Shown: positions 1 to 22,042 of the stretch, piece by piece
Layout: each line of letters starts with the position of its first letter
Position numbering within the stretch: position 1 is the stretch's first letter
IMG/VR virus record: IMGVR_UViG_3300010047_000009
Coordinates: 1-32,753 of that record
Direction: 5' to 3' (one strand)
Length of the DNA stretch: 32,753 nt
Source of the DNA: a virus
Lineage: Duplodnaviria > Caudoviricetes
Program-made: the position numbers and the translations under genes
Notes under the pieces: generated by a model
Told to the model about the DNA's origin: nothing
Seen by the model: only the letters and a program-made list of their open reading frames with translations
The model's database searches: none

Positions 1-117
1 CGGGCGGAGTCGACCCACGCAGCGGCAAGCGCGGGCCGCTCGGCCTCGCTCAATTGCGAAGCAAGCGAGCGAGGCCGAGCGGCCCGCGCTTGCCGCTGCG
101 TGGGTCGACTCCGCCCG
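1..117. repeat. 51-bp perfect inverted repeat (1-51 / 67-117) with 15-nt loop at the window start
   Basis: 1-51 is the exact reverse complement of 67-117. Probably a fold-back artefact at the contig end. Confidence 0.9.
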
Positions 118-3569: not shown

Positions 3570-4417
3570 AAGCCGAGCCCTCTCTTGATCGCCTCGACAT
3601 TGCCGGCGGTGCGCGCGGTGACGCCGAAGAGTTGCGGCTCCGGTGGCTCATCCTCCCAGCGCCGGCCGTTTAGGTACGTCGCGGGATACGGGACGAAGTC
3701 GCCGCGGTCCTTGCGCCAGTCCGGTAGCTCGCGTTGCCACGCCAGCGCATCGAGGATGGCCCTGAGCGGGGGCGGCCGCAGCTTCGCCCATGCCTTGCGC
3801 GCTTTCTGCTTATCGACGTGGCGCGGATACGCCTTCCAAAACTCATCAAATTCTGTCGTGGATGCGCAAGCGAGCGAAGCGAGCGATAAAGTTTCTTGGG
3901 GTATGGGTACGGGAACGGGTACGGGAACGGGTACGGGATGCAGCGGATTCCGTGCGGAATCCCCGGGGGAATCCCTCGGAGAATCCCCAGGGGAATCCCC
4001 AGGGGAATCCCCAGGGGAATCCCCAGGGGAACGCTCTGCTTTTTTCCGTCGTTCCTTTTCCCGTCTGGCAAGTACCTGTTTTCTTGAGGGGTTATACTTG
4101 AGGTAATCGTGAATTAGGTAGCCGCCGTCGACCTCATGCCATAGGCCGACGTCGATGAGGTGACTGACTACTCCGTAGGGTTCTGGCGAATGCGCGCCGC
4201 CTTTCACGTCAAGATCAGGCAACCCGCATTCGTTGCCGCAATTCGTGAAGATGCCTGAGAGGTCGACCAGTGTGGTGACCTTGGCATGTGGCACGAATCC
4301 GTCGGTGAGGTTCCGACCGCAGTATGTGATTGCCGCAACGTGTAAACCAAAACCGACGAAACCTGCGGCGAGGATCTTGGGGTTGTCCAAGATCGCATCG
4401 TCAATCTTGACCCACAT
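3566..4417 (-). CDS. phage replication initiator (lambda O-type organisation)
   Basis: MWVKIDD..DNPK...TDGFVP N-domain; C-terminal FDEFWKAYPR..K..A.KAW...YPATYLNGRRWEDE; internal iterons; GGAGG RBS. Confidence 0.85.
   Translation of the reverse strand: MWVKIDDAILDNPKILAAGFVGFGLHVAAITYCGRNLTDGFVPHAKVTTLVDLSGIFTNCGNECGLPDLDVKGGAHSPEPYGVVSHLIDVGLWHEVDGGYLIHDYLKYNPSRKQVLARREKERRKKAERSPGDSPGDSPGDSPGDSPRDSPGDSARNPLHPVPVPVPVPVPIPQETLSLASLACASTTEFDEFWKAYPRHVDKQKARKAWAKLRPPPLRAILDALAWQRELPDWRKDRGDFVPYPATYLNGRRWEDEPPEPQLFGVTARTAGNVEAIKRGLGL
3956..4031. repeat. six 12-bp iterons (GGAATCCCCAGG) inside the initiator gene; probable replication origin
   Basis: Units at 3956, 3968, 3980, 3992, 4004 and 4016, encoding SPGD repeats. 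Flanked by A/T-richer DNA and a 6-bp GGGTAC/GGGAAC repeat at about 3899-3938. Confidence 0.8.
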
Positions 4418-11167: not shown

Positions 11168-11489
11168 TGGGATCGTCCCGGCAGCTCCGCGCGAGCGCCC
11201 GCCGCAGGTACGCGATGCGACCGCGATCGGGCGGCCATTCCGCGAGCGCCTCAGCGAGGAGCTCGCCCAATTCTGGCGTCGCCCCGTCCTCGGCGAGGTC
11301 ATCAATGCATGCCCGCGCCATGTCGCCGAGCTCCCGCCGGTACTCCGGCCAGTCGGGACTTTCGCGGATGCTGCGACACATCGCGATGAATTCGTCGCGC
11401 TCTGCGGGGGTGCTGACCGGGGCGATCTTCGCCCGCAGCTCCCGCTCCCAGCGTGGCCGCCCCACACGCCTCCTAGCCAAGTTGGTCAT
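11157..11489 (-). CDS. hypothetical protein
   Basis: AAGGA RBS; overlaps the 3' end of the terminase ATPase gene. Confidence 0.6.
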   Translation of the reverse strand: MTNLARRRVGRPRWERELRAKIAPVSTPAERDEFIAMCRSIRESPDWPEYRRELGDMARACIDDLAEDGATPELGELLAEALAEWPPDRGRIAYLRRALARSCRDDPNGP

Positions 11490-12171
11490 GCACCAAGTCC
11501 TTGAAGAAGCCCGGGCCGGCGCTCGACACCGCCGTCAGCCGCCCGCCGCCCTCGATCGTCGGCCGCAAGGCGACCCAGGTCTCGAACGCATGGTCCCAAA
11601 ACGCCACCTCGTCGGCCAAGACGCTGGTAAACGTGTGCTGCCGCGCCTGCTCCTCGCCTTCCCCGAGCGCCACGATCTCCGACCCATTCGGGAACCGCAA
11701 GAAGCCAATCGAGTACTCGACCTCGCACACCGGAAACGTGGCGGGCAGGTGCTCGTGAATGAACTTCGCGCGCCGCACGAGCTCCGCCGACCCCTCCGTC
11801 TCCGTCTTGCCGAGTTTCCGTGCCATGAACGCGACCTTGCTATTGCCACAGAACCGCGCAAGCCAGTAGTTCACCGCCACGAAGAGCCAGGTGACGACCA
11901 TGCGCCGGGACTTCGCGACCGCGAGTAACGGTTGCTCCTGCCAGCGGCGCACCAAGAGCTCGGCATAGGCTTGCGTCGGGTAGCGCCGCACGCGCCCCGT
12001 CACCTCGTCCCGCGTCCAGACGCAGTCCCGTACAAACGCCCACGGATCCCCGTCCCGGCCGTAGGTCGCGAGCGTCTTTCGTTGCTCAAGCAGGAGCCGC
12101 GCTGCGGCGCGCATGGCCAAGGGATGGTCGGGCCCAAGGACCCGCCCGGCGCCGGCCCCCGGCTCAGGCAT
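11473..12171 (-). CDS. terL: terminase large subunit, N-terminal ATPase domain only
   Basis: Walker A-like AVAKSRRMVVTW, FPNGSEI, Walker B VLADEVAFW, coupling motif AVSSA; stops at 232 aa. Confidence 0.88.
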   Translation of the reverse strand: MPEPGAGAGRVLGPDHPLAMRAAARLLLEQRKTLATYGRDGDPWAFVRDCVWTRDEVTGRVRRYPTQAYAELLVRRWQEQPLLAVAKSRRMVVTWLFVAVNYWLARFCGNSKVAFMARKLGKTETEGSAELVRRAKFIHEHLPATFPVCEVEYSIGFLRFPNGSEIVALGEGEEQARQHTFTSVLADEVAFWDHAFETWVALRPTIEGGGRLTAVSSAGPGFFKDLVHDQLG

Positions 12172-12177
12172 CGGTGC

Positions 12178-12372
12178 TCATCGCCGCCCCCCCGCCTCGT
12201 AGCGCCGCCGCGCCTCATCCGCGAGCGCCGCCACCTCGCGCTCGGAGAGCCGCATGGCGTCGGGAATCTCGAGCTCGTCCATGATCCGCACGATCTCCTC
12301 GGCACACCACGCGATCTTCCGTAATTCCTCCGGGTCCTCGACGATAAGCGTCCCGTCCGCCAGCTCCTTCAT
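12178..12372 (-). CDS. small acidic hypothetical protein
   Basis: MKELADGTLIVEDPEELRKIAW...; GGAGG RBS, ATGA overlap. Confidence 0.65.
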   Translation of the reverse strand: MKELADGTLIVEDPEELRKIAWCAEEIVRIMDELEIPDAMRLSEREVAALADEARRRYEAGGRR

Positions 12373-13049
12373 TCCTCCCCCCCGGGTCCCGGCAAGAGCC
12401 CGACCACGCCCGCCAACCGCTCGGGCCACGCCCCCGTCGCACTGAAGGCTTCGAGCTCCTGGTCGCTTAACTGCTCCAACACGTGGAGGTGTAACATCGC
12501 CTTGCGCTCGACCTTGTCCCCGCTCGTCGTCAACACCAAATCCGCCGCCCGGATGGCATCGGCGTCGCGCTTCGCCCGCCCGACCCGCTCGCCCGTCGTC
12601 TTGTCCTTCCGCCCGCCCGCGAGCTCGGTGACGTGCTCCATCACCGTGGGGGCCGCGGCTTTGGCCTGCGCAATCACCCCGTACTCGCCCCGCAAGACCC
12701 GCTCCACCTGCGCGTCGCGCACCAAGGCGACGATGCGCTGGACCGCGGGATGCTTGAGCGCCTTCATCCCCGCCTGCTGCGTCGTGTAGCCGATCGCCCG
12801 CGCAATCGCCGCCGCGTCGTAGCCCCCCAAGTGCAGCATCGCCACCGACCACAGCCGCGCCGGCGTCGAGCGCCGCAGGTCCTCAAGCGACATGGTCGTG
12901 CACCCCTCCAGCCACGCCCGCGCCGCCGCCTTCTTCTCGGCATGCGAGCGCTTGGCCGCCGCCTGCAACGCCGCCACCCGCTCCGCCAAGACGTCCGGCG
13001 GCGCCCCAGGATGCGCAATCACGCCCGGCCCCATCCGTCCCGATGCCAT
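12369..13049 (-). CDS. terS: putative terminase small subunit
   Basis: HTH-like YDAAAIARAIGY..LKHPAVQ, helical middle, C-terminal LEQLSDQELE; upstream of the terminase ATPase. Confidence 0.6.
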   Translation of the reverse strand: MASGRMGPGVIAHPGAPPDVLAERVAALQAAAKRSHAEKKAAARAWLEGCTTMSLEDLRRSTPARLWSVAMLHLGGYDAAAIARAIGYTTQQAGMKALKHPAVQRIVALVRDAQVERVLRGEYGVIAQAKAAAPTVMEHVTELAGGRKDKTTGERVGRAKRDADAIRAADLVLTTSGDKVERKAMLHLHVLEQLSDQELEAFSATGAWPERLAGVVGLLPGPGGEE

Positions 13050-13870
13050 CGGCTCCCGCCGCTACCACGGATCCCGACCGCCTAGCTAGCGGCCCCCGGC
13101 CGCAGCGGCAGGACTGAGGCTCGGCGTCGGGTCGGGTCCACCCTGGCCCGTCGGTGCTCAGGCCGCCCTGGACTCGCCGGCCCCCACGCAAGCGCTCCGC
13201 GCTTGCTCAACCCCTTGCTCCGCAAGGGCTTGCGGCCCCCACAGCTAGCTGGCTAGCCAGCTGGCCTGCCAGCTGGCCCGCTGGCTATTGCGCACTGGCC
13301 TGGCCCAGTGCCTTGCTGGGGCGCACGGAATGCTTCTTGCTAGCCCAGGCCTGTACCAAGGCCTGTGCGTGGTTTCGCCTGACAGTGCCCTTAGCAGGTG
13401 CCATAGGAGGGGGTGCGAGCGAGCCCGGGAGGGCGAGCGGCTGGTCCCTTCTGGCGGGCGAGTGCCGGCGGCGATCGGCTAGCAACCTAGCACCGGTCCC
13501 GTTCCGGCTGGACCATGCCGGCGGGGATTGGCTACCAACCTAGCGGACTAGTCCCTAGGGGGTAGGGTGTGGGGGCAGGGCAGGCCTGGCACGGCCTGGG
13601 ATCCCATCTGTTGGCGGGTGGATTTTCTCTGAAGGGGGGGGGAATCCGACTGCCTGGCGGCTCGTCCGCGTTAGCGTCGGGGCGGTCTGGGGGGGCCGCG
13701 TCGGGGTGCGCCCAGACCAAGAGACCCCCTGGTCCACGAGCGGGGGAATCCAGCGGCACTCTTCGCGGCGTCTGGCGTCCCGCGCCGGCTTTGCGTCCGG
13801 TCCGAGGGAGCGCCGTGCCACTCGAGGGTCCGGCACGCCAGTGGTGGTGTATGCGCTGCGAGCGCGCCGC
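13050..13870. other. largest non-coding region, CTAG-rich with short repeats; candidate packaging/terminus region
   Basis: No convincing ORF; 10 CTAG in 13082-13558; GCTA/GCTG/GCCA periodic run 13244-13287. Confidence 0.45.
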
Positions 13871-13873
13871 TCG

Positions 13874-14158
13874 TCAAGATGGGGGGCCGGGAATGCGGGT
13901 GCGCATGGCGCGTTCGATGGCGGCGTGGCGGGTCGGGCCGGCGGTGAAGAAGCGGGCCCCGAGATAGACGGTGAAGTAGGGGCGGTCGGGGCGGGCGGGG
14001 GTGATGATGGCGTGGTGGCGTTCGAGCCACGCATTGCAGGCTGCGGTGGTGGCGTGGAGGCGTTCGGTGCGGTGGTGGGGGTGGCGGCTCTGGGCGCGGG
14101 CGCGGATGGCGTCCCAGCCGACCAAGCGGGAGCCGTCGGCATGGCCGCGGCGGCTCAT
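13874..14158 (-). CDS. hypothetical protein
   Basis: ATGA-coupled to the upstream gene. Confidence 0.5.
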   Translation of the reverse strand: MSRRGHADGSRLVGWDAIRARAQSRHPHHRTERLHATTAACNAWLERHHAIITPARPDRPYFTVYLGARFFTAGPTRHAAIERAMRTRIPGPPS

Positions 14159-14346
14159 GCGGTCTCGGGCGTCGGGGTGGCGACGTGGAGTGGGACGACG
14201 GTGGCCGTGGGGGCGAGCTGCTCGAGGAGGACGAGGACGACCTTGCGGATGGTGGCATCATCGACGCGGCAGACGATGAGCGGCTCGCCGCTGTCCTCGA
14301 TGTCCTCGTCGGCTTCGGAGATGGTGAGGACGCGGAGCCGTGCCAT
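14155..14346 (-). CDS. hypothetical protein
   Basis: MARLRVLTISEADEDIEDSGEPLIVCRVDD...; TG-C-TATACC extended -10-like element upstream. Confidence 0.55.
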   Translation of the reverse strand: MARLRVLTISEADEDIEDSGEPLIVCRVDDATIRKVVLVLLEQLAPTATVVPLHVATPTPETA

Positions 14347-14376
14347 GGGCTGAGGGTATAGCACAGCGCGGCCCTC

Positions 14377-14416
14377 TTGACGGGGGCGGCGCTCGGGTGC
14401 GAGACGGCCCGTCCCG
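14377..14416 (+). promoter_or_regulatory. late promoter motif, copy A
   Basis: TTGAC-N20-AGACGGCCCGTCCCG directly before GTG 14417. Confidence 0.6.
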
Positions 14417-15244
14417 GTGGCGTGGTATTATACCGAGCCGCGGCGGCGGCGGCTGCCCTTGGAGCCCGTGCCGGGGACGGCGGCGGGCGGTGGGGGTGGG
14501 CCGCCGACGGGGCCGGCGGGCGGGGACCTTGCCGGGAGCTACCCGAATCCCAGCCTGGCGCCGGGGGCGGTGCAGCGGTCGGAGACGGCGCCCGATCTCT
14601 GGCTCTCCCCCATCCCGAGCGATCCGGGGAATGTCGGGCAGGTGCTGACGGTGGTGTCGGGTCCGGCGCTGGTGTGGCAGACGGTCGCGGCCGCGGGGAT
14701 CACCGGGATCTGGAACTATAAAGGCGCGACCGGACTTGTCGATCCGGGGAGCCGGAACCTCGGGATGGATTCGGTCACCACCCCGACGGTGGTCGTGTTC
14801 TCCACCACGACAGTCCCGGGCAGCGATGCCACGAATGTGCTGGTCACGACCCAGGTCGGCGACGTGCTGGTCGCGCAGCAGCGGGATGATGCGTCGAAGT
14901 GGGGGCGGTATCAGGTCCGCGCTCCCATCGTGAACCACGGCACCTGGTTCGAGGTGCCCGTGACGGTGATTGCCGGGGGGACGGGCGGCGGTCCGACACT
15001 CAATGCGGACGTCATGGTGCAATTCCAGCGGAGCGCCACGCCGGCGGCGCTGGCCTATCGCCACGTGCAATCGTCGGCATCGACCACGTGGGCGATCACG
15101 CACAATCTCTCCTTTCGGCCAAATGTGGCCGCGATTGATTCGACGGGGCGGGAGATCTGGCCGGGGGCGACCGACTATCCGAGCGCGACCACGGTGCAGC
15201 TGACGTTTTCGGCGGCGGTCGCGGGCGAGGCGTACCTCAGTTAG
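14417..15244 (+). CDS. virion fibre/decoration protein
   Basis: [11 protein letters not shown] motif; C-terminal HVQSSASTTWAITHNL..RPNV...TFSAAVAGEAYL module typical of phage fibres. Confidence 0.7.
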   Translation: MAWYYTEPRRRRLPLEPVPGTAAGGGGGPPTGPAGGDLAGSYPNPSLAPGAVQRSETAPDLWLSPIPSDPGNVGQVLTVVSGPALVWQTVAAAGITGIWNYKGATGLVDPGSRNLGMDSVTTPTVVVFSTTTVPGSDATNVLVTTQVGDVLVAQQRDDASKWGRYQVRAPIVNHGTWFEVPVTVIAGGTGGGPTLNADVMVQFQRSATPAALAYRHVQSSASTTWAITHNLSFRPNVAAIDSTGREIWPGATDYPSATTVQLTFSAAVAGEAYLS

Positions 15245-15253
15245 GGGGCTGTG

Positions 15254-16483
15254 ATGCCGACCATTTACGGCGCCGTCGATCTGGTCAAGAACGAGCTCCG
15301 CAATGCCGTGATGCAGAACTTGGGCTCCGCGCCGGCCTCGCCGGTAAAGGGGCTCATGTATTTCGACACCACCGCGAACATCTTTTACTGGTACAACGGC
15401 ACGACGTGGGTCGCGGCCCAGTCGGGGGCGAGTCTCAATCCGGCGACCACCGTCACGACGCAGGCGATTGGCGATGCCCCGGTCGTCGGCACGCTCGCCA
15501 GCTATGCCCGCGAGGATCACAAGCACGGCGAGCCGGCGTTCGCGGCCCCGACCGCGCAGACCTCCTTCGGGCTGGCGTCCGCGACCGGGTCGGCGGCGAC
15601 GCTGCCGCGCTCGGACCATACGCACGGCACGCCGACCCACCTGAACGCGGACCACGCCGCGATCAACCATTCCGCCTTGGCGCCCCCGACGGCGGACGTC
15701 AGCTGGGGGGGGTTCAAGCTGACCAGCCTCGGTGCCCCCGTGGCGGCCACCGATGCCTCGACCAAGGGCTACGTCGACGCGGCCATTAGTGGTCTGGCGT
15801 GGAAGGATACGTGTCGCATCGCGTCCACGGCCCAGGTGGCGTTGACGGGGCTCGTCGCGATCGACGGCGTGACGCCGGCGGCGGGCGATCGGGTGCTGTT
15901 GAAGAATCAGACCGCGCCGGCCGAGAATGGCATCTGGGTGGCGGCGTCGGGGGCGTGGGCCCGGGCGACGGATGCGGCGGCGGCCGGGGATCTCCTGAAT
16001 GCCGCCTGCTTCGTCTCCGAGGGCACGGTGAACGCCGATACGGCGTGGGTGATGACGACCAACGCGCCGATCACGGTCGGCACGACGGCACTCACCTGGG
16101 TGCAGTTCTCGGGGGGCGGGACCTATATTGGCGGCGCCGGGCTGACGCTGACGGGCAATACCTTCGACGTGGGCGCGGGGACTGGGATCACCGTGGCGGC
16201 GGACACCGTCGCCGTCGACACCACGGTCATCGCGACCCAAGCCTACGTCACCACCGCCATCACGGGGATGGCGAAGAAGTTTGCGGCGGCGCTGACGGGC
16301 ACCGCGAGCCCCGAGACGGTGACCCACAATCTGAACACCCGGGACGTGCAGGTGCTTGTCTACAACGGCGCGTCGCCCTACACGGCGGTCCAGGTGGATT
16401 GGGACGCGGCGACCGTGAACACCGTGACCATCCGCTACAACCCGAATCTCGGGGCCGGCTACCGTGTCGTGGTGATCGGCTGA
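15254..16483 (+). CDS. virion fibre/decoration protein
   Basis: [25 protein letters not shown]...WARATDA and THNLNTRDV modules. Confidence 0.75.
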
Positions 16484-16812
16484 TGCGCGACTACGGCAAC
16501 ACCAACGCGGCGCCCTATGCGAGCGCGCCGGCGGTCGGGCTGGCGGGCGACACGTACTGGAGCACCGCGGCGAAAGTCCTCTATGTGTCCGATGGCACGG
16601 CGTGGATCGCGGTGGGGCCGGGGGCGGGGGGGCCTCCGAGCGGCAGCGCCGGGGGGTCGTTAGCGGGCAGCTATCCCAACCCGACCCTTGCCGCGAGCGG
16701 GGTGACGGCAGGCAGCTACGGCGATGCGCGGACGATTCCGACCGTCACCGTCACTGCCGAGGGGCGGATTTCGGCCGTGACGACGGTGACCTTGATCGCG
16801 CAGTGGAAGTGA
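16483..16812 (+). CDS. small fibre-like virion protein
   Basis: [20 protein letters not shown] and [16 protein letters not shown] motifs; TGATG coupling. Confidence 0.7.
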
Positions 16813-16848
16813 GCGCCGCCCGCTGCCAACCGGGCGTGGCACGGGGAC

Positions 16849-16888
16849 TTGACGCGTGGGGGGGGCGAATGGCACACGGCCCGTCCCG
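16849..16888 (+). promoter_or_regulatory. late promoter motif, copy B
   Basis: TTGAC-N20-ACACGGCCCGTCCCG in the intergenic gap before the lysis cassette. Confidence 0.6.
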
Positions 16889-16991
16889 GCGAGGCTAATG
16901 GCGAGGCCCCCTGAGCCGGTCGGCCACGATTATCGCACCGCCCCCGGTGTGTCCCTCGAGGTCGGCCGGCTCCCCCCCCCGGGGTAAGCAG

Positions 16992-17558
16992 ATGCGCCGG
17001 GTCGGGGGCGTTGGGGTCGTCTTGGTGCTGGTGGCGGCCGAGACGGTGGGAGCATGTCCACCCGGCAAGGGCGGGCTCTCCGCCATTCGCACCAAGGGCG
17101 CGTTTTGTTTGACGGTCTGCAAGTCGAAGCAGCCGGGGCCTCCGGGTCCGCCGGGGCTGCCGGGCGTGGCTGGGACGGTTGGCCCGGTCGGTCCGGTGGG
17201 TCCGGCGGGCCCTCCGGGTCGCGATGGGGCGCCAGGAGTGGTCGGGCCGAGCGGTGCGCCCGGTCCGACGGGCCCCGGGCTGGCGCTGCGGCCAAAAGTG
17301 GCCACGTCGGGGGTGCTCGAGCGGCCGATCGCGGGGACCTTGGTGACGCTCACAGCCGAATGCGACCCGGGGACGGTGCCGGTCGGCGGTGGGCTCACGA
17401 ATGTGGTGGGAAATCCGCAGGATGAGCCCCGCACGCATCTTCTGGACTCCGGGCCGACGGCCACGGGCTGGCATTCGGACGCCACCGTGGTCTCGACGTT
17501 CTCGTTTGGCGGCACGCTCGAGGTCTTGGTGACCGTCCTCTGTATGGAGGCGCCGTAG
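16992..17558 (+). CDS. collagen-like protein with N-terminal signal/anchor
   Basis: MRR plus hydrophobic stretch, about 16 Gly-X-Y triplets, C-terminal [13 protein letters not shown] domain. Confidence 0.75.
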
Positions 17559-17560
17559 CG

Positions 17561-17872
17561 ATGGGGGCACCTGGGGGGGTCGGGGCCGGGGCGGGTGGCT
17601 TGGCGGGGATCGCGCAAGTGGTTGCGCAGGTTGGGTTTCCGGTGGTCGTCGCCGGGGTGCTCCTCTGGTTCCTCTTGACGAAGTTTCAGGACACCATGCT
17701 GACGATCACGGCGCGGATGGAGGCGAATACGGATGCCGCGGAGCACGTGATGGAGGTCCAAGCGGCTGAAATGGCTGAGTTAAAGGCCCAAACGATCGAG
17801 TTACAGCGCCAGACGGGGCTGATGCAGCGGTTTTTGGACCTCCGCGAGCGCCCCTCGGGGCACACGCCGTGA
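17561..17872 (+). CDS. putative holin (one TM plus coiled coil)
   Basis: [19 protein letters not shown] segment; immediately upstream of the endolysin. Confidence 0.55.
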
Positions 17873-17888
17873 TGGGGAGGGTGCACGC

Positions 17889-18485
17889 ATGATTCATCGC
17901 ACCTATTTCTTCGATTCCGTGCGCTATTACCTCGATTCCAACCAATCTTTGACCCAAGATCAGGTCGATGGGCTCAATTCCTTGCTCGATTACTACGAAA
18001 TGGTCGGGATTGAGGGCTCGGGAGACTATGAGGACCGCTATTTTGCCTATATTTGCGCCACGACGTGGCACGAGACCGCCGCGACGTGTCAACCGATCGC
18101 GGAATACGGGAAAGGCGCCGGAAAACCCTATGGGAAACCCGCCGGACCCTATGGGCAGGTCTATTATGGTCGCGGCTACGTGCAATTGACCTGGTATGAC
18201 AACTACGTCGCGCAGGATACGAAACTCGGGCTCAATTCCGAGCTCGTCAAAAACCCGGATCTCGCGCTCGACCCCGATCTTGCCACCAAGATCCTCTTCG
18301 GCGGCATGCGGGACGGCGATTTCACCGGCAAGCGGCTGTCCGATTACTTCACTGAGACGCTGACGGACTGGTACAATGCGCGCCGCATCGTGAATGCGAC
18401 CGACCAGGCCTCGTTGATCGCTGGCTACGGAGAAAAGTTCTTGAACGCGATCGCGCACACGTTCCCGCCGCCGCGTGCGGCGTAG
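17889..18485 (+). CDS. endolysin, glycoside hydrolase family 19-like
   Basis: AYICATTWHET, YYGRGYVQLTW.DNY, LVKNPDLAL, FTGKRLSDY and ARRIVN motifs. Confidence 0.88.
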   Translation: MIHRTYFFDSVRYYLDSNQSLTQDQVDGLNSLLDYYEMVGIEGSGDYEDRYFAYICATTWHETAATCQPIAEYGKGAGKPYGKPAGPYGQVYYGRGYVQLTWYDNYVAQDTKLGLNSELVKNPDLALDPDLATKILFGGMRDGDFTGKRLSDYFTETLTDWYNARRIVNATDQASLIAGYGEKFLNAIAHTFPPPRAA

Positions 18486-18498
18486 AGGAGAGCTTGAG

Positions 18499-18627
18499 AT
18501 GACGACCGAGCGCCGCCCCGAGGACGAGACCCCGCCACCCGTCCCGCCACCCGACGAGGACGCCGTCAAGGACTTGGAGGACCCCGAGCCCGTCGGGCCC
18601 AAGGAGCCCGCGGACGAAGGCGCGTAG
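18499..18627 (+). CDS. small acidic Pro-rich ORF (42 aa), in frame with the terminase nuclease gene
   Basis: GAGGAG RBS; ends TAG-CCG-ATG in the frame of 18631. Confidence 0.55.
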   Translation: MTTERRPEDETPPPVPPPDEDAVKDLEDPEPVGPKEPADEGA

Positions 18628-18630
18628 CCG

Positions 18631-19500
18631 ATGCCGTTTCTCGGTGCTCGCGGGGCCGCGCCCGACCCGCGGGGCACCGCCGCACAGCCGATGCCGGGCG
18701 TGACGGAGTGGCGCTGCCCGCGCAACGGCGTCCACGTCGTCGAAGTGCACTACACCGCCGATCCGGCGAAGCGCGACCCCGCGTGGAAGCGCGAAGCGAT
18801 GCGCGGCATGCCGCCGCGCGGCTGGCAACGTGAAATGGAGATCGCGTTCGACCTGGCTGGCGGCGAGCCGGTCTTGCCGGAATACGTCCCGGCGGAGATG
18901 CGCCGCCCCTTTCCGGTCAATGCCTCCGCCCGGCTCCTGCGCGGCTGGGATTTTGGCCAGGTCTGTCCCGTGACCGTGTTTGCGCAGCTCGACGTGCATG
19001 GTCGGCTCGGCTTCGTCGCCGAGCTGGTGCTCGAGCACGCCAACCTGACGGCGCAAATCGAGGCCACCAAGGCCATGACGATTGAGCTGGTTGGCCCGGG
19101 CGCAAACTGCTTTGACGCGGGCGACCCGGAGGCGTTGCACGAGATGGAGCTCGGGTCAATTCGCGCGGTCCTCTTAAAGCACGGGATCATCTTGCAGACC
19201 TTCGCGCGTAGCAGCGACACGTCCTACAACAACCTGCGCGACCGGCTCTTGCGCCGCGTGCGCATTCCCGGCGAGGAGGTGCCGAGTCCGGCGTTGCTTG
19301 TCGACCCGCGCTGCCCGATCCTCCATTCGGCGTTCTCGGGCGGGTTTGCGCGGCATCAGAAGACCGGGAAACCCATGCCCACGCACCCCTACAAGGACGT
19401 CGTCGACGCCGCGCGCTACTTGCACGACAACTTGCAGGGCTCGAGCTCGGACTGGATGCAGAAGCTCCAGCGCATCGCGCGCGCGGATTGCGCATGGTGA
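18631..19500 (+). CDS. terL: terminase large subunit, C-terminal nuclease domain only
   Basis: HYTADP, WQREMEIAF, RGWDFG, DAGDP and KDVVDAARY (RNase H-fold acidic motifs); no Walker motifs; directly upstream of the portal. Confidence 0.85.
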   Translation: MPFLGARGAAPDPRGTAAQPMPGVTEWRCPRNGVHVVEVHYTADPAKRDPAWKREAMRGMPPRGWQREMEIAFDLAGGEPVLPEYVPAEMRRPFPVNASARLLRGWDFGQVCPVTVFAQLDVHGRLGFVAELVLEHANLTAQIEATKAMTIELVGPGANCFDAGDPEALHEMELGSIRAVLLKHGIILQTFARSSDTSYNNLRDRLLRRVRIPGEEVPSPALLVDPRCPILHSAFSGGFARHQKTGKPMPTHPYKDVVDAARYLHDNLQGSSSDWMQKLQRIARADCAW

Positions 19501-19555: not shown

Positions 19556-22042
19556 ATGCCACGACGCACCGCGGGCGGGGCTGCCGCCGAAACGCTCTCG
19601 CCGGCACGCGGCGAGGCGCCGAAGAATCTCGCGCTCGACCCGCTCATTGTCGAGCGGGTCAAAAACGAGTTGGTGCCGCTCGTCCGTCGCACCCGCCAGG
19701 AGCGCAACGGCGTGCTCCGCGAGCGCTGGCTCCGCTATTACCGCATCTGGAGCGTGCGGCACGACCGCCAGGGCTACGTCGGGCGGTCAAATACCTATTT
19801 CCCGGTTGGCCGCCGCTGGATTGAGCAATGGGTCACGCGCCTCAAGCGCGATCTCTTTCCCGACCAGGACTGGTTTGCGTGCCGCGCGTTGCGCGAAGAT
19901 TTTGAGGCGCGCGTGCCCGCCAAGCAGGCATTGGCGGCCTATTGGATGCGCCGCCACATGCGGCTCCGCAAGCACGCGCTGCCGTGGCTCCGCCAGCTCG
20001 TCATGTATGGCACATCCCCGGTGCGCAACGTCTGGCGTGCCGTCGAGCACGAGCAAACGGTGCTCCGCGACGTCCTCGACGACGACGGCCAGCCATCGGG
20101 AAAAACGATTGAGCAAGTGGAAAAGGTGGCGGACTTCCTCGGCCCGACCTTCGAGCCCGTCGACCTTTTCGCGTTCTACGTCTGGCCGCCGACCGCCGCT
20201 GGGCTCGAGGACTGCACGCTCGTCTTCGAGGATCGGTGTGTGCCGCGGAGCCGGGTCTATGCCTTGGCCACGAAGCCCCTCGACCCCTCCAACCCGAAAG
20301 CCGGCAACGTGTATGAGGGGGTTGACGAGCTGGTCGCGCTCTACGACCAGGCGATGCAAAACCGCACGGGCGGGCAAGCGGGTCGCAACCCCGAGAAATT
20401 TGACGCGCTCGCCATCCGGTTAGCGGATAAGGGATTCACCGCCCCGCTCGACTTTAACGTCCCCGCCGCCCTCCGCCCGCTCGACCTGACGGAATGCATG
20501 TGGACGGTGGACCTCGAGGACGACGAGCCGGCCCGCTACTTGGTCACGCTCGGCGCCGACGAGGTCCCCTTACGCGTGCAACGCCGGCCGTTCTGGCACG
20601 GCGGTACGCAATGGCTCGTCGGCCGGTTTCAGCAAATTCCCGAGGAATTCTACGGCCGCGGGCTCTGCGAGCTCTTTGACTATCTGCAGTATTTCGTCAA
20701 CGACCTCGGCAACCAGTCGGGTGACGCCTTTGTCTGGTCAACCAACCCGATCGCCGTGGTTGACATTGGTGCCGTTCAGGACCCGACCAGTCTGCGCATG
20801 GCGCCGGGTGCCAAGTGGCTCGCCAATCCCGCCGGCGTGCAGTTCACCACGCCACCCCAAGGAGCGGCCACCGCCGGCTTTACCGCCGTCCAGGGCTACG
20901 TCGGGCTGGCCGATACCTTGGTCGCGCCGACGCCCGCACGGCCGATGGCGCCCAATCAGCAGACCGGCGCGCAGGATTCCGCGGGCTTGGCGGCCCAGCT
21001 CGCCGATAGCGCCGTCGACATTCGCGCCGTCATTGAAAGCCTCGAGGACGAGGTGATGGTACCGCTCCTTGAGCGCTCTGACATTCTCACGCAGCAGTGC
21101 TTGGACCGGGACATTATCTTAAAGGTGGCGGGCAAGGATGGGATGGAACTCGTCGAGCACCCGATCACGGTCGCCGACTTGGTCGGCGAGTACGAGTGGG
21201 AATGGCTCGGCACGACCACGGCGCAGAATCAGCAGGTCCGCGCGCAGCAGATGATCCAAGGCGTGGCGCTGATGAGCCAAATTCCACCGGACCAATTGGC
21301 CGCGCAGGGCGTTACCATCGACTGGCCGTACATCTTGCGCACCTTCTGGTCGGTTGGCTTGGGGCTCCCCGATGCCGACCGGGTCGTTAAAACCGGAAAA
21401 GACGTCCAGCCGAATGATTGGCGCTGGGAGAATGCGCTCGCCCGCGTGAACCGCGCCGACGAGCTCCGCGTCTCCCCGCAAGACGATCATACCGCGCACG
21501 TCCAGGGCCACCAGCATCTATTAGATAGTGACAGCCTGACCGAGGACGCCCGGCTCGGGCTCCAGACCCACATTCACCACCATATCGGGCTGCAGATTGC
21601 CGCCGAGGCGCAAGCACTCGCGCAGTCGATGGCGACGCTTGCAGGGCCGCCCGGCATGCCCGGCCCGCCGCCGGGAGCGCCTCCGCCTGGTATCGGGCCG
21701 CTGCCTGGTGGACCGCCGATGCCACCTCCCCCGGGGGCGCTCCCGCCGGCCGGGCCACCACCTCCCATGGGCCCGCCGCCCATGCCGCCGCCGCTCCCGG
21801 TCGGCCCGGGAGGGCCGCCGCCCCCTCCTTATATAGCGGGCGTGCCGAACGCGGGGATCAACGAGCTCGCGTCCCGGCTCCGTGGCCCGGACTTTGGCGC
21901 CCCGCGGCCGCATAGTGGCTCGCGCGACCGGGCCAAGGCGCTGATGGGCATTCGGCCCCCGGCCCCGCTCGGGCAAGGGCGAATTGGAAAGACCCGTACG
22001 CTGGCCGATCTTTTCCGCGGCCTGCCGCGGCTTCCGAGGTGA
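19556..22042 (+). CDS. portal protein with Pro-rich C-terminal tail
   Basis: 828 aa; MYGTSP, EEFYGRGL..QYFVN and LRMAPGAKW motifs of podovirus-type portals; position after terminase. Confidence 0.85.
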   Translation: MPRRTAGGAAAETLSPARGEAPKNLALDPLIVERVKNELVPLVRRTRQERNGVLRERWLRYYRIWSVRHDRQGYVGRSNTYFPVGRRWIEQWVTRLKRDLFPDQDWFACRALREDFEARVPAKQALAAYWMRRHMRLRKHALPWLRQLVMYGTSPVRNVWRAVEHEQTVLRDVLDDDGQPSGKTIEQVEKVADFLGPTFEPVDLFAFYVWPPTAAGLEDCTLVFEDRCVPRSRVYALATKPLDPSNPKAGNVYEGVDELVALYDQAMQNRTGGQAGRNPEKFDALAIRLADKGFTAPLDFNVPAALRPLDLTECMWTVDLEDDEPARYLVTLGADEVPLRVQRRPFWHGGTQWLVGRFQQIPEEFYGRGLCELFDYLQYFVNDLGNQSGDAFVWSTNPIAVVDIGAVQDPTSLRMAPGAKWLANPAGVQFTTPPQGAATAGFTAVQGYVGLADTLVAPTPARPMAPNQQTGAQDSAGLAAQLADSAVDIRAVIESLEDEVMVPLLERSDILTQQCLDRDIILKVAGKDGMELVEHPITVADLVGEYEWEWLGTTTAQNQQVRAQQMIQGVALMSQIPPDQLAAQGVTIDWPYILRTFWSVGLGLPDADRVVKTGKDVQPNDWRWENALARVNRADELRVSPQDDHTAHVQGHQHLLDSDSLTEDARLGLQTHIHHHIGLQIAAEAQALAQSMATLAGPPGMPGPPPGAPPPGIGPLPGGPPMPPPPGALPPAGPPPPMGPPPMPPPLPVGPGGPPPPPYIAGVPNAGINELASRLRGPDFGAPRPHSGSRDRAKALMGIRPPAPLGQGRIGKTRTLADLFRGLPRLPR

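What the first reader, a model, noticed from the sequence alone, without database searches (positions are those of the whole stretch)
11473..19500. Large terminase split into ATPase and nuclease genes on opposite strands about 6.5 kb apart
Seen: 11473-12171(-) has only ATPase motifs (KSRR, DEVAFW, SSA) and sits behind terS. 18631-19500(+) has only the linker and nuclease motifs (HYTADP, GWDFG, DVVDAARY) and sits before the portal. Both frames are intact and together total about 520 aa, with no redundancy. Established: TerL is normally one polypeptide, and known interruptions (introns, inteins, frameshifts) are usually collinear. Inference: this phage builds a two-chain packaging motor, with ATPase and nuclease in separate divergent transcription units. 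That would allow independent timing or stoichiometry of cutting versus translocation.
Basis: partly seen in the sequence, partly recalled or inferred. Interest (0 to 1): 0.85.

Follow-up and report, generated by a model that had tools for sequence, protein, structure and literature searches.

The report
Two-chain phage terminase, opposite-strand genes
This uncultured phage and its close relatives encode the DNA-packaging enzyme, normally one protein, as two genes kilobases apart on opposite strands; the cut lies inside the ATP-driven engine, so the two proteins likely have to lock together to work.

Summary
Confirmed and real. 11473-12171(-) is a large-terminase ATPase core and 18631-19500(+) carries the terminase nuclease; together they tile one-chain relatives of about 510 aa without overlap. 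All 12 related viral contigs holding both halves have them on opposite strands. Two complete genomes show no other terminase, both genes are under purifying selection, and I found no intein, intron, readthrough or invertible switch. One correction: the break is not at the ATPase/nuclease boundary but inside the ATPase domain. The second chain is predicted to supply the last core strand and the lid, and a complex model pairs them there (0.90 against 0.00 for the best control; likeness to solved one-chain terminases may explain the pass). That points to a 1:1 heterodimer rather than independently dosed cutting and pumping. Trees place the split first (same-strand relatives with cargo in the gap) and an inversion of terS plus ATPase later. 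Two-gene terminases are published for cluster AY phages, but as consecutive genes of an unrelated family cut after the lid. This scan found the same opposite-strand family twice before on other DNA. New variant of a known kind.

The parts
11473..12171 (-). Terminase chain A, 232 aa: ASCE ATPase core with five core strands; Walker A K87-S-R89-R90, R177, Walker B D187-E188, motif III S216-S-A; ends before the sixth strand and lid
   Evidence: (T4 gp17 100-303, Z 22.4, rmsd 2.8 A, 200 aligned)
18631..19500 (+). Terminase chain B, 289 aa: residues about 17-77 predicted to be the last ATPase strand (35-39) and lid (E68), then RNase H-like nuclease from residue 78 (D107, D165, D256, D259)
12369..13049 (-). 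Likely small terminase subunit, 226 aa
   Evidence: ESM Atlas feature hits 0.92-0.93 including a PF03592 cluster; upstream of the ATPase in same-strand relatives; no Pfam or PHROG hit
12178..12372 (-). 64-codon ORF between terS and the ATPase, a variable slot (24-6,166 nt in relatives)
13379..13442 (-). Conserved non-coding element upstream of terS (GCTCGC repeats, octamer ACTGTCAG, followed by GCTA-type repeats); candidate packaging site or operator, untested
13874..14364 (-). Two small leftward ORFs (94 and 69 codons); the strand switch lies just right of them
   Evidence: GC skew changes sign between 12-13 kb and 14-15 kb
14417..17558 (+). Cargo: virion or fibre-like genes (275 aa, 410 aa phrog_2647, about 110 aa, 203 aa collagen-repeat)
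17561..18485 (+). Cargo: holin and endolysin; an endolysin also lies in the gap of 5 of 24 same-strand relatives
18499..18627 (+). Small acidic ORF whose stop lies 3 nt before the chain B start
19556..22042 (+). Portal protein, 828 aa
   Evidence: PF23899 E 2e-6, under its cut-off; phrog_1216 E 2.5e-5

Best explanation
The phage encodes its large terminase as two separately translated genes on opposite strands, and the two proteins likely assemble non-covalently 1:1 into one motor subunit. Shown: chain A is the ATPase core up to the helix after motif III; chain B carries the rest. Predicted: chain B's strand 34-39 completes chain A's sheet beside the Walker A strand, and its lid closes on the P-loop, so the Walker A arginine (R89, chain A) and the lid glutamate (likely E68, chain B) would work across chains. 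Inferred from other terminases: five such heterodimers ring the portal, with chain B cutting the DNA. Inferred history: the gene was cut at a variable surface loop, cargo genes filled the gap, and in this clade the terS-ATPase block was then inverted into the leftward arm. The split is most likely tolerated, not a device for separate control.
For: Tiling of the fused profile; 120 of 120 listed long homologues match both half-profiles, 9-26 residues apart in the 117 under 600 aa. Chain A ends at T4 gp17 303, P74-26 195, Sf6 164, D6E 189, before the published lids at 314-357, 221-251 and 173-210 (PMC6379665 Table 1) and the D6E linker 230-241 (PMC5727402); chain B residue 78 aligns with D6E 234. 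Complex model 0.90, best of 3 controls 0.00; that mark was reached by 116 of 157 solved complexes and 2 of 215 mismatched pairs (rough here, own alignments); runs agree in at least 97% of contacts, partner pLDDT at least 79; closest pairs are A83-86 with B34-39. K87, R89, R90, R177, D187, E188, H40, E68 and D165 are identical in 117 of 117 fused relatives. Median dN/dS 0.087 and 0.105, 47 pairs each. Stop at the same codon in 53 of 53 ATPase loci, using TAA, TAG and TGA, with unrelated sequence after it. In quick trees of both halves the 10 opposite-strand loci are one clade (SH-aLRT 100) inside same-strand split relatives (97 and 99).
Against: No experiment, transcript or protein evidence. 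The complex pass may come from likeness to solved one-chain terminases, since the interface is the ancestral intramolecular one. Trees are quick searches without bootstrap, rooted at the midpoint, with long-branch warnings. The Walker A lacks the usual GK(T/S) lysine (lambda-like KS-R form, shared by the fused relatives), so activity is inferred. No cultured phage of this family was found. The leftward unit continues into integrase and replication genes, so differential timing is not excluded.
Confidence: 0.78

Rival explanations
1. Regulated assembly switch: the split is selected so that terS and chain A, in the leftward arm, are made at a different time or level from chain B, and cutting and pumping start only when chain B arrives.
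For: The two genes are in divergent units in 12 of 12 contigs; the leftward arm also holds excisionase, integrase and replication genes; the arrangement has been kept across 72-100% identity.
Against: The virion gene homologous to 15251-16483 sits between terS and the ATPase in 7 of 38 loci. 30 distinct same-strand split loci, some with gaps of 3-66 nt, keep the split with no separate strand. Fused and split forms interleave in the trees.
Confidence: 0.14
2. The halves are rejoined into one chain by an invertible DNA segment, trans-splicing RNA or a split intein.
For: One inversion bounded by the ATPase stop and the chain B start would make them adjacent (geometry of the window); split-intein terminases are published (PMC2677866); the phage has a tyrosine recombinase.
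Against: Longest inverted match between the two junctions is 8-12 nt in 10 loci, against a random median of 9 and 95th percentile of 11; flanks diverge right after the stop and right before the start; no Rfam hit in the window or six related loci; no extra residues for an intein at either end; no joint linking the halves among the listed joints of 4 runs of contigs (contigs drop rare forms).
Confidence: 0.03
3. Assembly artefact, decayed prophage, or a complete terminase elsewhere does the job.
For: The window is a linear record estimated 86% complete and begins with a 57-bp mirror repeat not seen in three relatives.
Against: 12 of 12 contigs share the layout; terS is opposite to chain B in 20 of 20 loci that reach it; purifying selection; G001 (39,113 bp) and G003 (37,490 bp), both with terminal repeats, give one match per half, and only the ATPase half hits a terminase PHROG among 80 and 94 ORFs of 200 aa or more.
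Confidence: 0.02
4. The split is kept to escape host sensors that recognise whole terminase (Avs type).
For: A terminase bound by Avs3 is among the structural matches (8dgc); a search listing says Avs2 recognises terminase (PMC11564622, start of abstract only).
Against: The predicted heterodimer rebuilds the normal fold and both active sites are conserved; host unknown; no direct test.
Confidence: 0.03

Closest known systems
One-chain large terminase (T4 gp17; P74-26, D6E, Sf6, HK97 TerL)
   Same: ASCE ATPase core, Walker A arginine, Walker B DE, motif III, lid, RNase H-like nuclease; terS upstream and portal downstream
   Different: Two genes, two chains, opposite strands; last ATPase strand and lid on the nuclease chain; lambda-like Walker A
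Two-gene terminase of Arthrobacter cluster AY phages (BillyTP, BlueShadow; PMC11920828, PMC12820723)
   Same: Large terminase encoded by two separate genes in cultured phages
   Different: Consecutive overlapping genes on one strand, 359 + 198 aa; the second gene reaches its first catalytic-type Asp at residue 15 versus 107 here, so the cut is after the lid (read by eye); no detectable similarity to either half (hhalign probability under 1%)
Parabacteroides phage PDS1 two-CDS terminase (PMC10773633)
   Same: Terminase annotated as two CDS
   Different: Adjacent, same strand, 337 + 148 aa; authors raised an assembly or codon-table problem; ATPase part not similar
Split-intein and group I intron terminases (PMC2677866; PMC12880540)
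   Same: terL in pieces with other DNA between
   Different: Those are rejoined by protein or RNA splicing; here no intein or intron was found and the pieces are on opposite strands
Uncultured one-chain relatives of about 500-540 aa, including Megasphaera prophages (L162-L164, L166, L168)
   Same: About 40% identity, same motifs, both halves match
   Different: Fused through a variable loop of about 13 profile positions where this family is cut

Membership tests
One-chain large terminase (TerL) | ASCE ATPase core with Walker A arginine, Walker B DE, motif III | tested here: met
One-chain large terminase (TerL) | Canonical GK(T/S) Walker A lysine | tested here: not met
   KSRRMVVT; N-terminal lysine as in the lambda motif of PMC6379665 Table 1; K87, R89, R90 in 117 of 117 fused relatives, so not caused by the split
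One-chain large terminase (TerL) | Lid subdomain after the ATPase core | tested here: met
   Absent from chain A; predicted on chain B residues 40-77; not aligned directly to a solved lid
One-chain large terminase (TerL) | RNase H-like nuclease with conserved acidic residues | tested here: met
   D107, D162, D165, D256, D259 invariant in 50 of 50 aligned
One-chain large terminase (TerL) | ATPase and nuclease on one polypeptide | tested here: not met
One-chain large terminase (TerL) | Works with a small terminase and a portal | tested here: inconclusive
   terS by Atlas features and position only; portal by sub-threshold Pfam and PHROG hits; interactions untested
One-chain large terminase (TerL) | ATP-driven packaging and DNA cleavage | not testable with these tools
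   needs biochemistry
Cluster AY two-gene terminase | Two consecutive same-strand genes | tested here: not met
   opposite strands, 4.6-10.8 kb apart; consecutive forms occur only in distant kin
Cluster AY two-gene terminase | Cut between ATPase (with lid) and nuclease | tested here: not met
Cluster AY two-gene terminase | Sequence homology to BillyTP gp2 or gp3 | tested here: inconclusive
   no detectable match, profile against single sequence; remote common terminase ancestry is not excluded
Split-intein (fractured) terminase | Intein halves at the facing ends | tested here: not met
   halves tile the fused profile with at most 16 spare residues; no intein Pfam in 42 and 50 members
Intron-split terL | Group I or II intron RNA, collinear exons | tested here: not met
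   no Rfam hit at gathering score; opposite strands; own stop and start
Invertible DNA switch | Inverted recombination sites at both junctions and both orientations seen | tested here: not met
   one orientation in 12 of 12 contigs

The most novel reading that the evidence does not exclude
Terminase activation by fold completion: terS and an incomplete, inactive ATPase core from the leftward arm load on the conserved site upstream of terS, and the motor fires only when the rightward late arm delivers the chain that brings the missing strand, the lid and the nuclease, making packaging an AND gate between two divergent transcription units.
Probability: 0.15. Interest if true: 0.82.

Novelty: new variant of a known kind. 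Interest (0 to 1): 0.62.

Why it matters
Models of the packaging motor have force passing from the ATPase core through the lid to DNA and the nuclease within one chain. Genes on opposite strands cannot be joined by readthrough, frameshifting or cis-splicing, so this clade is clean natural evidence that the core-to-lid connection need not be covalent. It gives a ready pair of proteins, with fused relatives as controls, to test whether the lid and the arginine toggle work in trans, and to switch a motor on by adding one chain. It also warns that terminase-based annotation and phylogeny miss this family: the second chain has no Pfam or PHROG hit.

Tried and rejected
Sequence searches of chain B against Pfam, PHROGs and PDB gave nothing useful. 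No cultured close relative among annotated phage records. My idea that new terminal helices (A 17-37, B 274-288) form a new dimer interface was not borne out: neither is among the confident contacts. Homing-endonuclease origin of the split: HNH genes in the gap of only 2 of 24 same-strand loci (99 ORFs scanned), so unsupported. Stop recoding or readthrough rejected (three stop codons, unrelated flanks). The phrog_2 genome search missed the known ATPase in G001 (4 of 5 found), so I relied on the family profile and ORF scans instead. Sigma-70 and terminator scans were uninformative (2 promoter-like sites against 0.5 expected, neither before terS or either half). No RNA holder listed. Read laying used contigs only and no piece spans the whole stretch; a variant contig spans the strand switch (13526-15767), but the best run may be the source sample. 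Host unresolved: two metagenome-bin labels disagree. L171 has the window's length and an identical ATPase and was left out of all counts, as were metagenome duplicates of viral contigs; L132 (ATPase frame running 71 residues on) is among the 30 same-strand loci. A paper search for T4 half-protein complementation found nothing. Papers PMC12210895, PMC10054541, PMC9414953 and PMC7824862 (passages) held no two-chain precedent.
Full report
Setting. The window is a linear virus record of 32,753 bases, estimated 86% complete. It encodes an integrase, excisionase-like protein, replication initiator, methylase and resolvase leftward, and portal, capsid and fibre genes rightward, so it is likely a temperate tailed phage; one relative is classed as a provirus. 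Runs holding the stretch are soil metagenomes. The host is unresolved.

Observation. Both ORFs are as described: 232 aa at 11473-12171(-) and 289 aa at 18631-19500(+), diverging, 6,459 nt between starts. The first matches terminase by sequence (phrog_2; T4 gp17) and by fold (model pLDDT 92.7; gp17 Z 22.4). The second has no family hit, but its model (pLDDT 85.2) matches D6E, P22, G20c and SPP1 terminase nucleases. A search for longer homologues gave 145 hits; all 120 listed match profiles of both halves, and 117 are under 600 aa. Those tested are phrog_2 terminases (3 of 3 from that list). On their 512-position profile the halves cover 17-211 and 225-488. So both pieces come from one terminase family and do not overlap.

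Not an artefact. Twelve distinct viral contigs hold both halves, and all 12 have them on opposite strands, 4.6-10.8 kb apart with changing cargo between (L001, L008, L013, L016, L023, L024, L038, L043, L052; G004 and G005; G011; G004 is divergent only if read as a circle). Some may share a sample or be close strains. terS is opposite to the nuclease gene in 20 of 20 loci that reach it. Two relatives with terminal repeats, G001 and G003, give one match per half, and among their 80 and 94 ORFs of 200 aa or more only the ATPase half hits a terminase PHROG. Median dN/dS against the window is 0.087 (range 0.025-0.187) and 0.105 (0.030-0.253), 47 pairs each. The ATPase stop is at the same codon in 53 of 53 loci, uses all three stop codons, and the DNA after it, like the DNA before the second start, is unrelated between loci. 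That argues against readthrough, recoding, a conserved splicing RNA or a recombination site. Rfam gave no hit, and inverted matches at the junctions are at chance level.

Where the cut lies. Chain A ends at the equivalents of T4 gp17 303, P74-26 195, Sf6 164 and D6E 189. Published lids lie at 314-357, 221-251 and 173-210 (PMC6379665 Table 1, passages read), and in D6E the lid runs into a linker at 230-241 (PMC5727402, passages and section 14 read). Chain B aligns to nuclease domains only from residue 78 (D6E 234). So the first 77 or so residues of chain B belong to the ATPase domain. Chain A's model has five core strands; that terminase cores have a sixth beside the Walker A strand is recalled, not from a call. 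The complex model places B34-39 against A83-86, the Walker A strand, and B67-74 among the interface residues along with A82-91: score 0.90, best of 3 controls 0.00, mark reached by 116 of 157 solved and 2 of 215 mismatched pairs, run agreement at least 97%, partner pLDDT at least 79. This is the ancestral intramolecular contact, so the pass may reflect likeness to solved terminases; it supports binding and does not show it. PMC6379665 describes a Walker A arginine toggling to a lid glutamate; here R89 is on chain A and the invariant E68, my inferred equivalent, is on chain B (both 117 of 117 in fused relatives).

History. More distant loci show a series: fused (7 loci, 3 distinct, mostly Megasphaera prophages), and split on one strand with gaps of 3 to 7,415 nt (30 distinct), nearly all ending at the same loop. 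In quick trees of each half the 10 opposite-strand loci form one clade (SH-aLRT 100) grouped with L111, L113 and L144 (97 and 95) inside a 24-row split clade (97 and 99). L111 and L144 read replication genes leftward, then terS, ATPase, nuclease, portal rightward. An inversion of the terS-ATPase block gives the window's order; this is inferred. An endolysin lies in the gap of 5 of 24 same-strand loci, as it does before chain B here. Fused and split states interleave (starred branches force at least 3-5 changes), suggesting repeated fission or re-fusion; the trees are unbootstrapped and midpoint-rooted.

Mechanism. Shown: two separate, selected genes that together make one terminase. Predicted: strand and lid complementation. 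Inferred: a 1:1 heterodimer that forms the usual ring. Separate dosing of cutting and pumping fits poorly, because pumping is predicted to need the nuclease-bearing chain, and because a virion gene sits between terS and the ATPase in 7 of 38 loci. A timing role cannot be excluded without RNA data.

Known systems. Cluster AY Arthrobacter phages encode the two domains as separate consecutive genes (PMC11920828 and PMC12820723, one passage each; the Gavin 2024 paper they cite was not seen). BillyTP is 359 + 198 aa, cut after the lid, and not detectably similar. PDS1 has two CDS that its authors doubted (PMC10773633, passages). Intein- and intron-split terL are rejoined by splicing (PMC2677866, PMC12880540, passages). 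A review describes TerL as one chain with a linker (PMC7617512, passages). Ten full-text searches showed no paper on an opposite-strand terminase or one cut before the lid; the library lacks most subscription papers, and I opened no supplements, so PDS1 Figure S3 and AY details may bear on this. Earlier notes of this scan list 36 findings on split terminases, two of them on look-alike DNA with the same opposite-strand layout; these are leads, not support.

Verdict. A real, conserved two-chain terminase. It works like TerL and derives from it, but fails the one-polypeptide feature, and differs from the published two-gene type in family, break point and gene layout. New variant of a known kind; interest 0.62.

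Noticed in passing
window 13379-13442: Conserved non-coding element upstream of terS. All 25 copies of the octamer ACTGTCAG in 508 kb of loci L001-L053 lie 229-797 nt upstream of terS on its strand; present in 24 of 27 close loci with 300 nt or more of upstream DNA, and in none of 10 same-strand relatives within 800 nt. The motif was picked from the same data. Candidate packaging site or operator.
   Followed up: partly
window 1-117: 57-bp near-perfect hairpin at the contig start; no such hairpin in G001, G003 or G004, and G003 matches only from position 61 on, so it may be an assembly mirror.
   Followed up: partly
window 14417-16812; L004, L005, L016, L017, L039, L041, L046: A virion-gene cassette lies on the nuclease side in the window but between terS and the ATPase, on the other strand, in several relatives.
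   Followed up: partly
window 18627-18633; L054-L105: The chain B start often lies 0-3 nt after an upstream stop codon with no clear Shine-Dalgarno, whatever the upstream gene; suggests translational coupling.
   Followed up: no
L129, L130, L162-L164, L166, L168: Fused terminases of Megasphaera prophages nest among split forms (L119, L120, L158) in both quick trees, a possible re-fusion.
   Followed up: partly
window 13050-13075 and 14346-14365 (minus strand): A TG(C/G)TA motif lies 10-20 nt before the likely starts of terS and of the 69-codon ORF, and before terS in many relatives; possibly a short-leader promoter.
   Followed up: no
window 3947-4031: 12-nt tandem repeats inside the replication-initiator gene, likely origin iterons.
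   Followed up: no
P0194, P0260, P0266: Three fused relatives of 838-847 aa carry LAGLIDADG or intein Pfam domains; in P0194 the insertion interrupts the nuclease part.
   Followed up: no
L251:14990-15766; L253:8686-9522: Cargo next to the nuclease gene in complete relatives includes a PAPS-reductase-like gene (G001) and a Mom-like DNA modification gene (G003).
   Followed up: no
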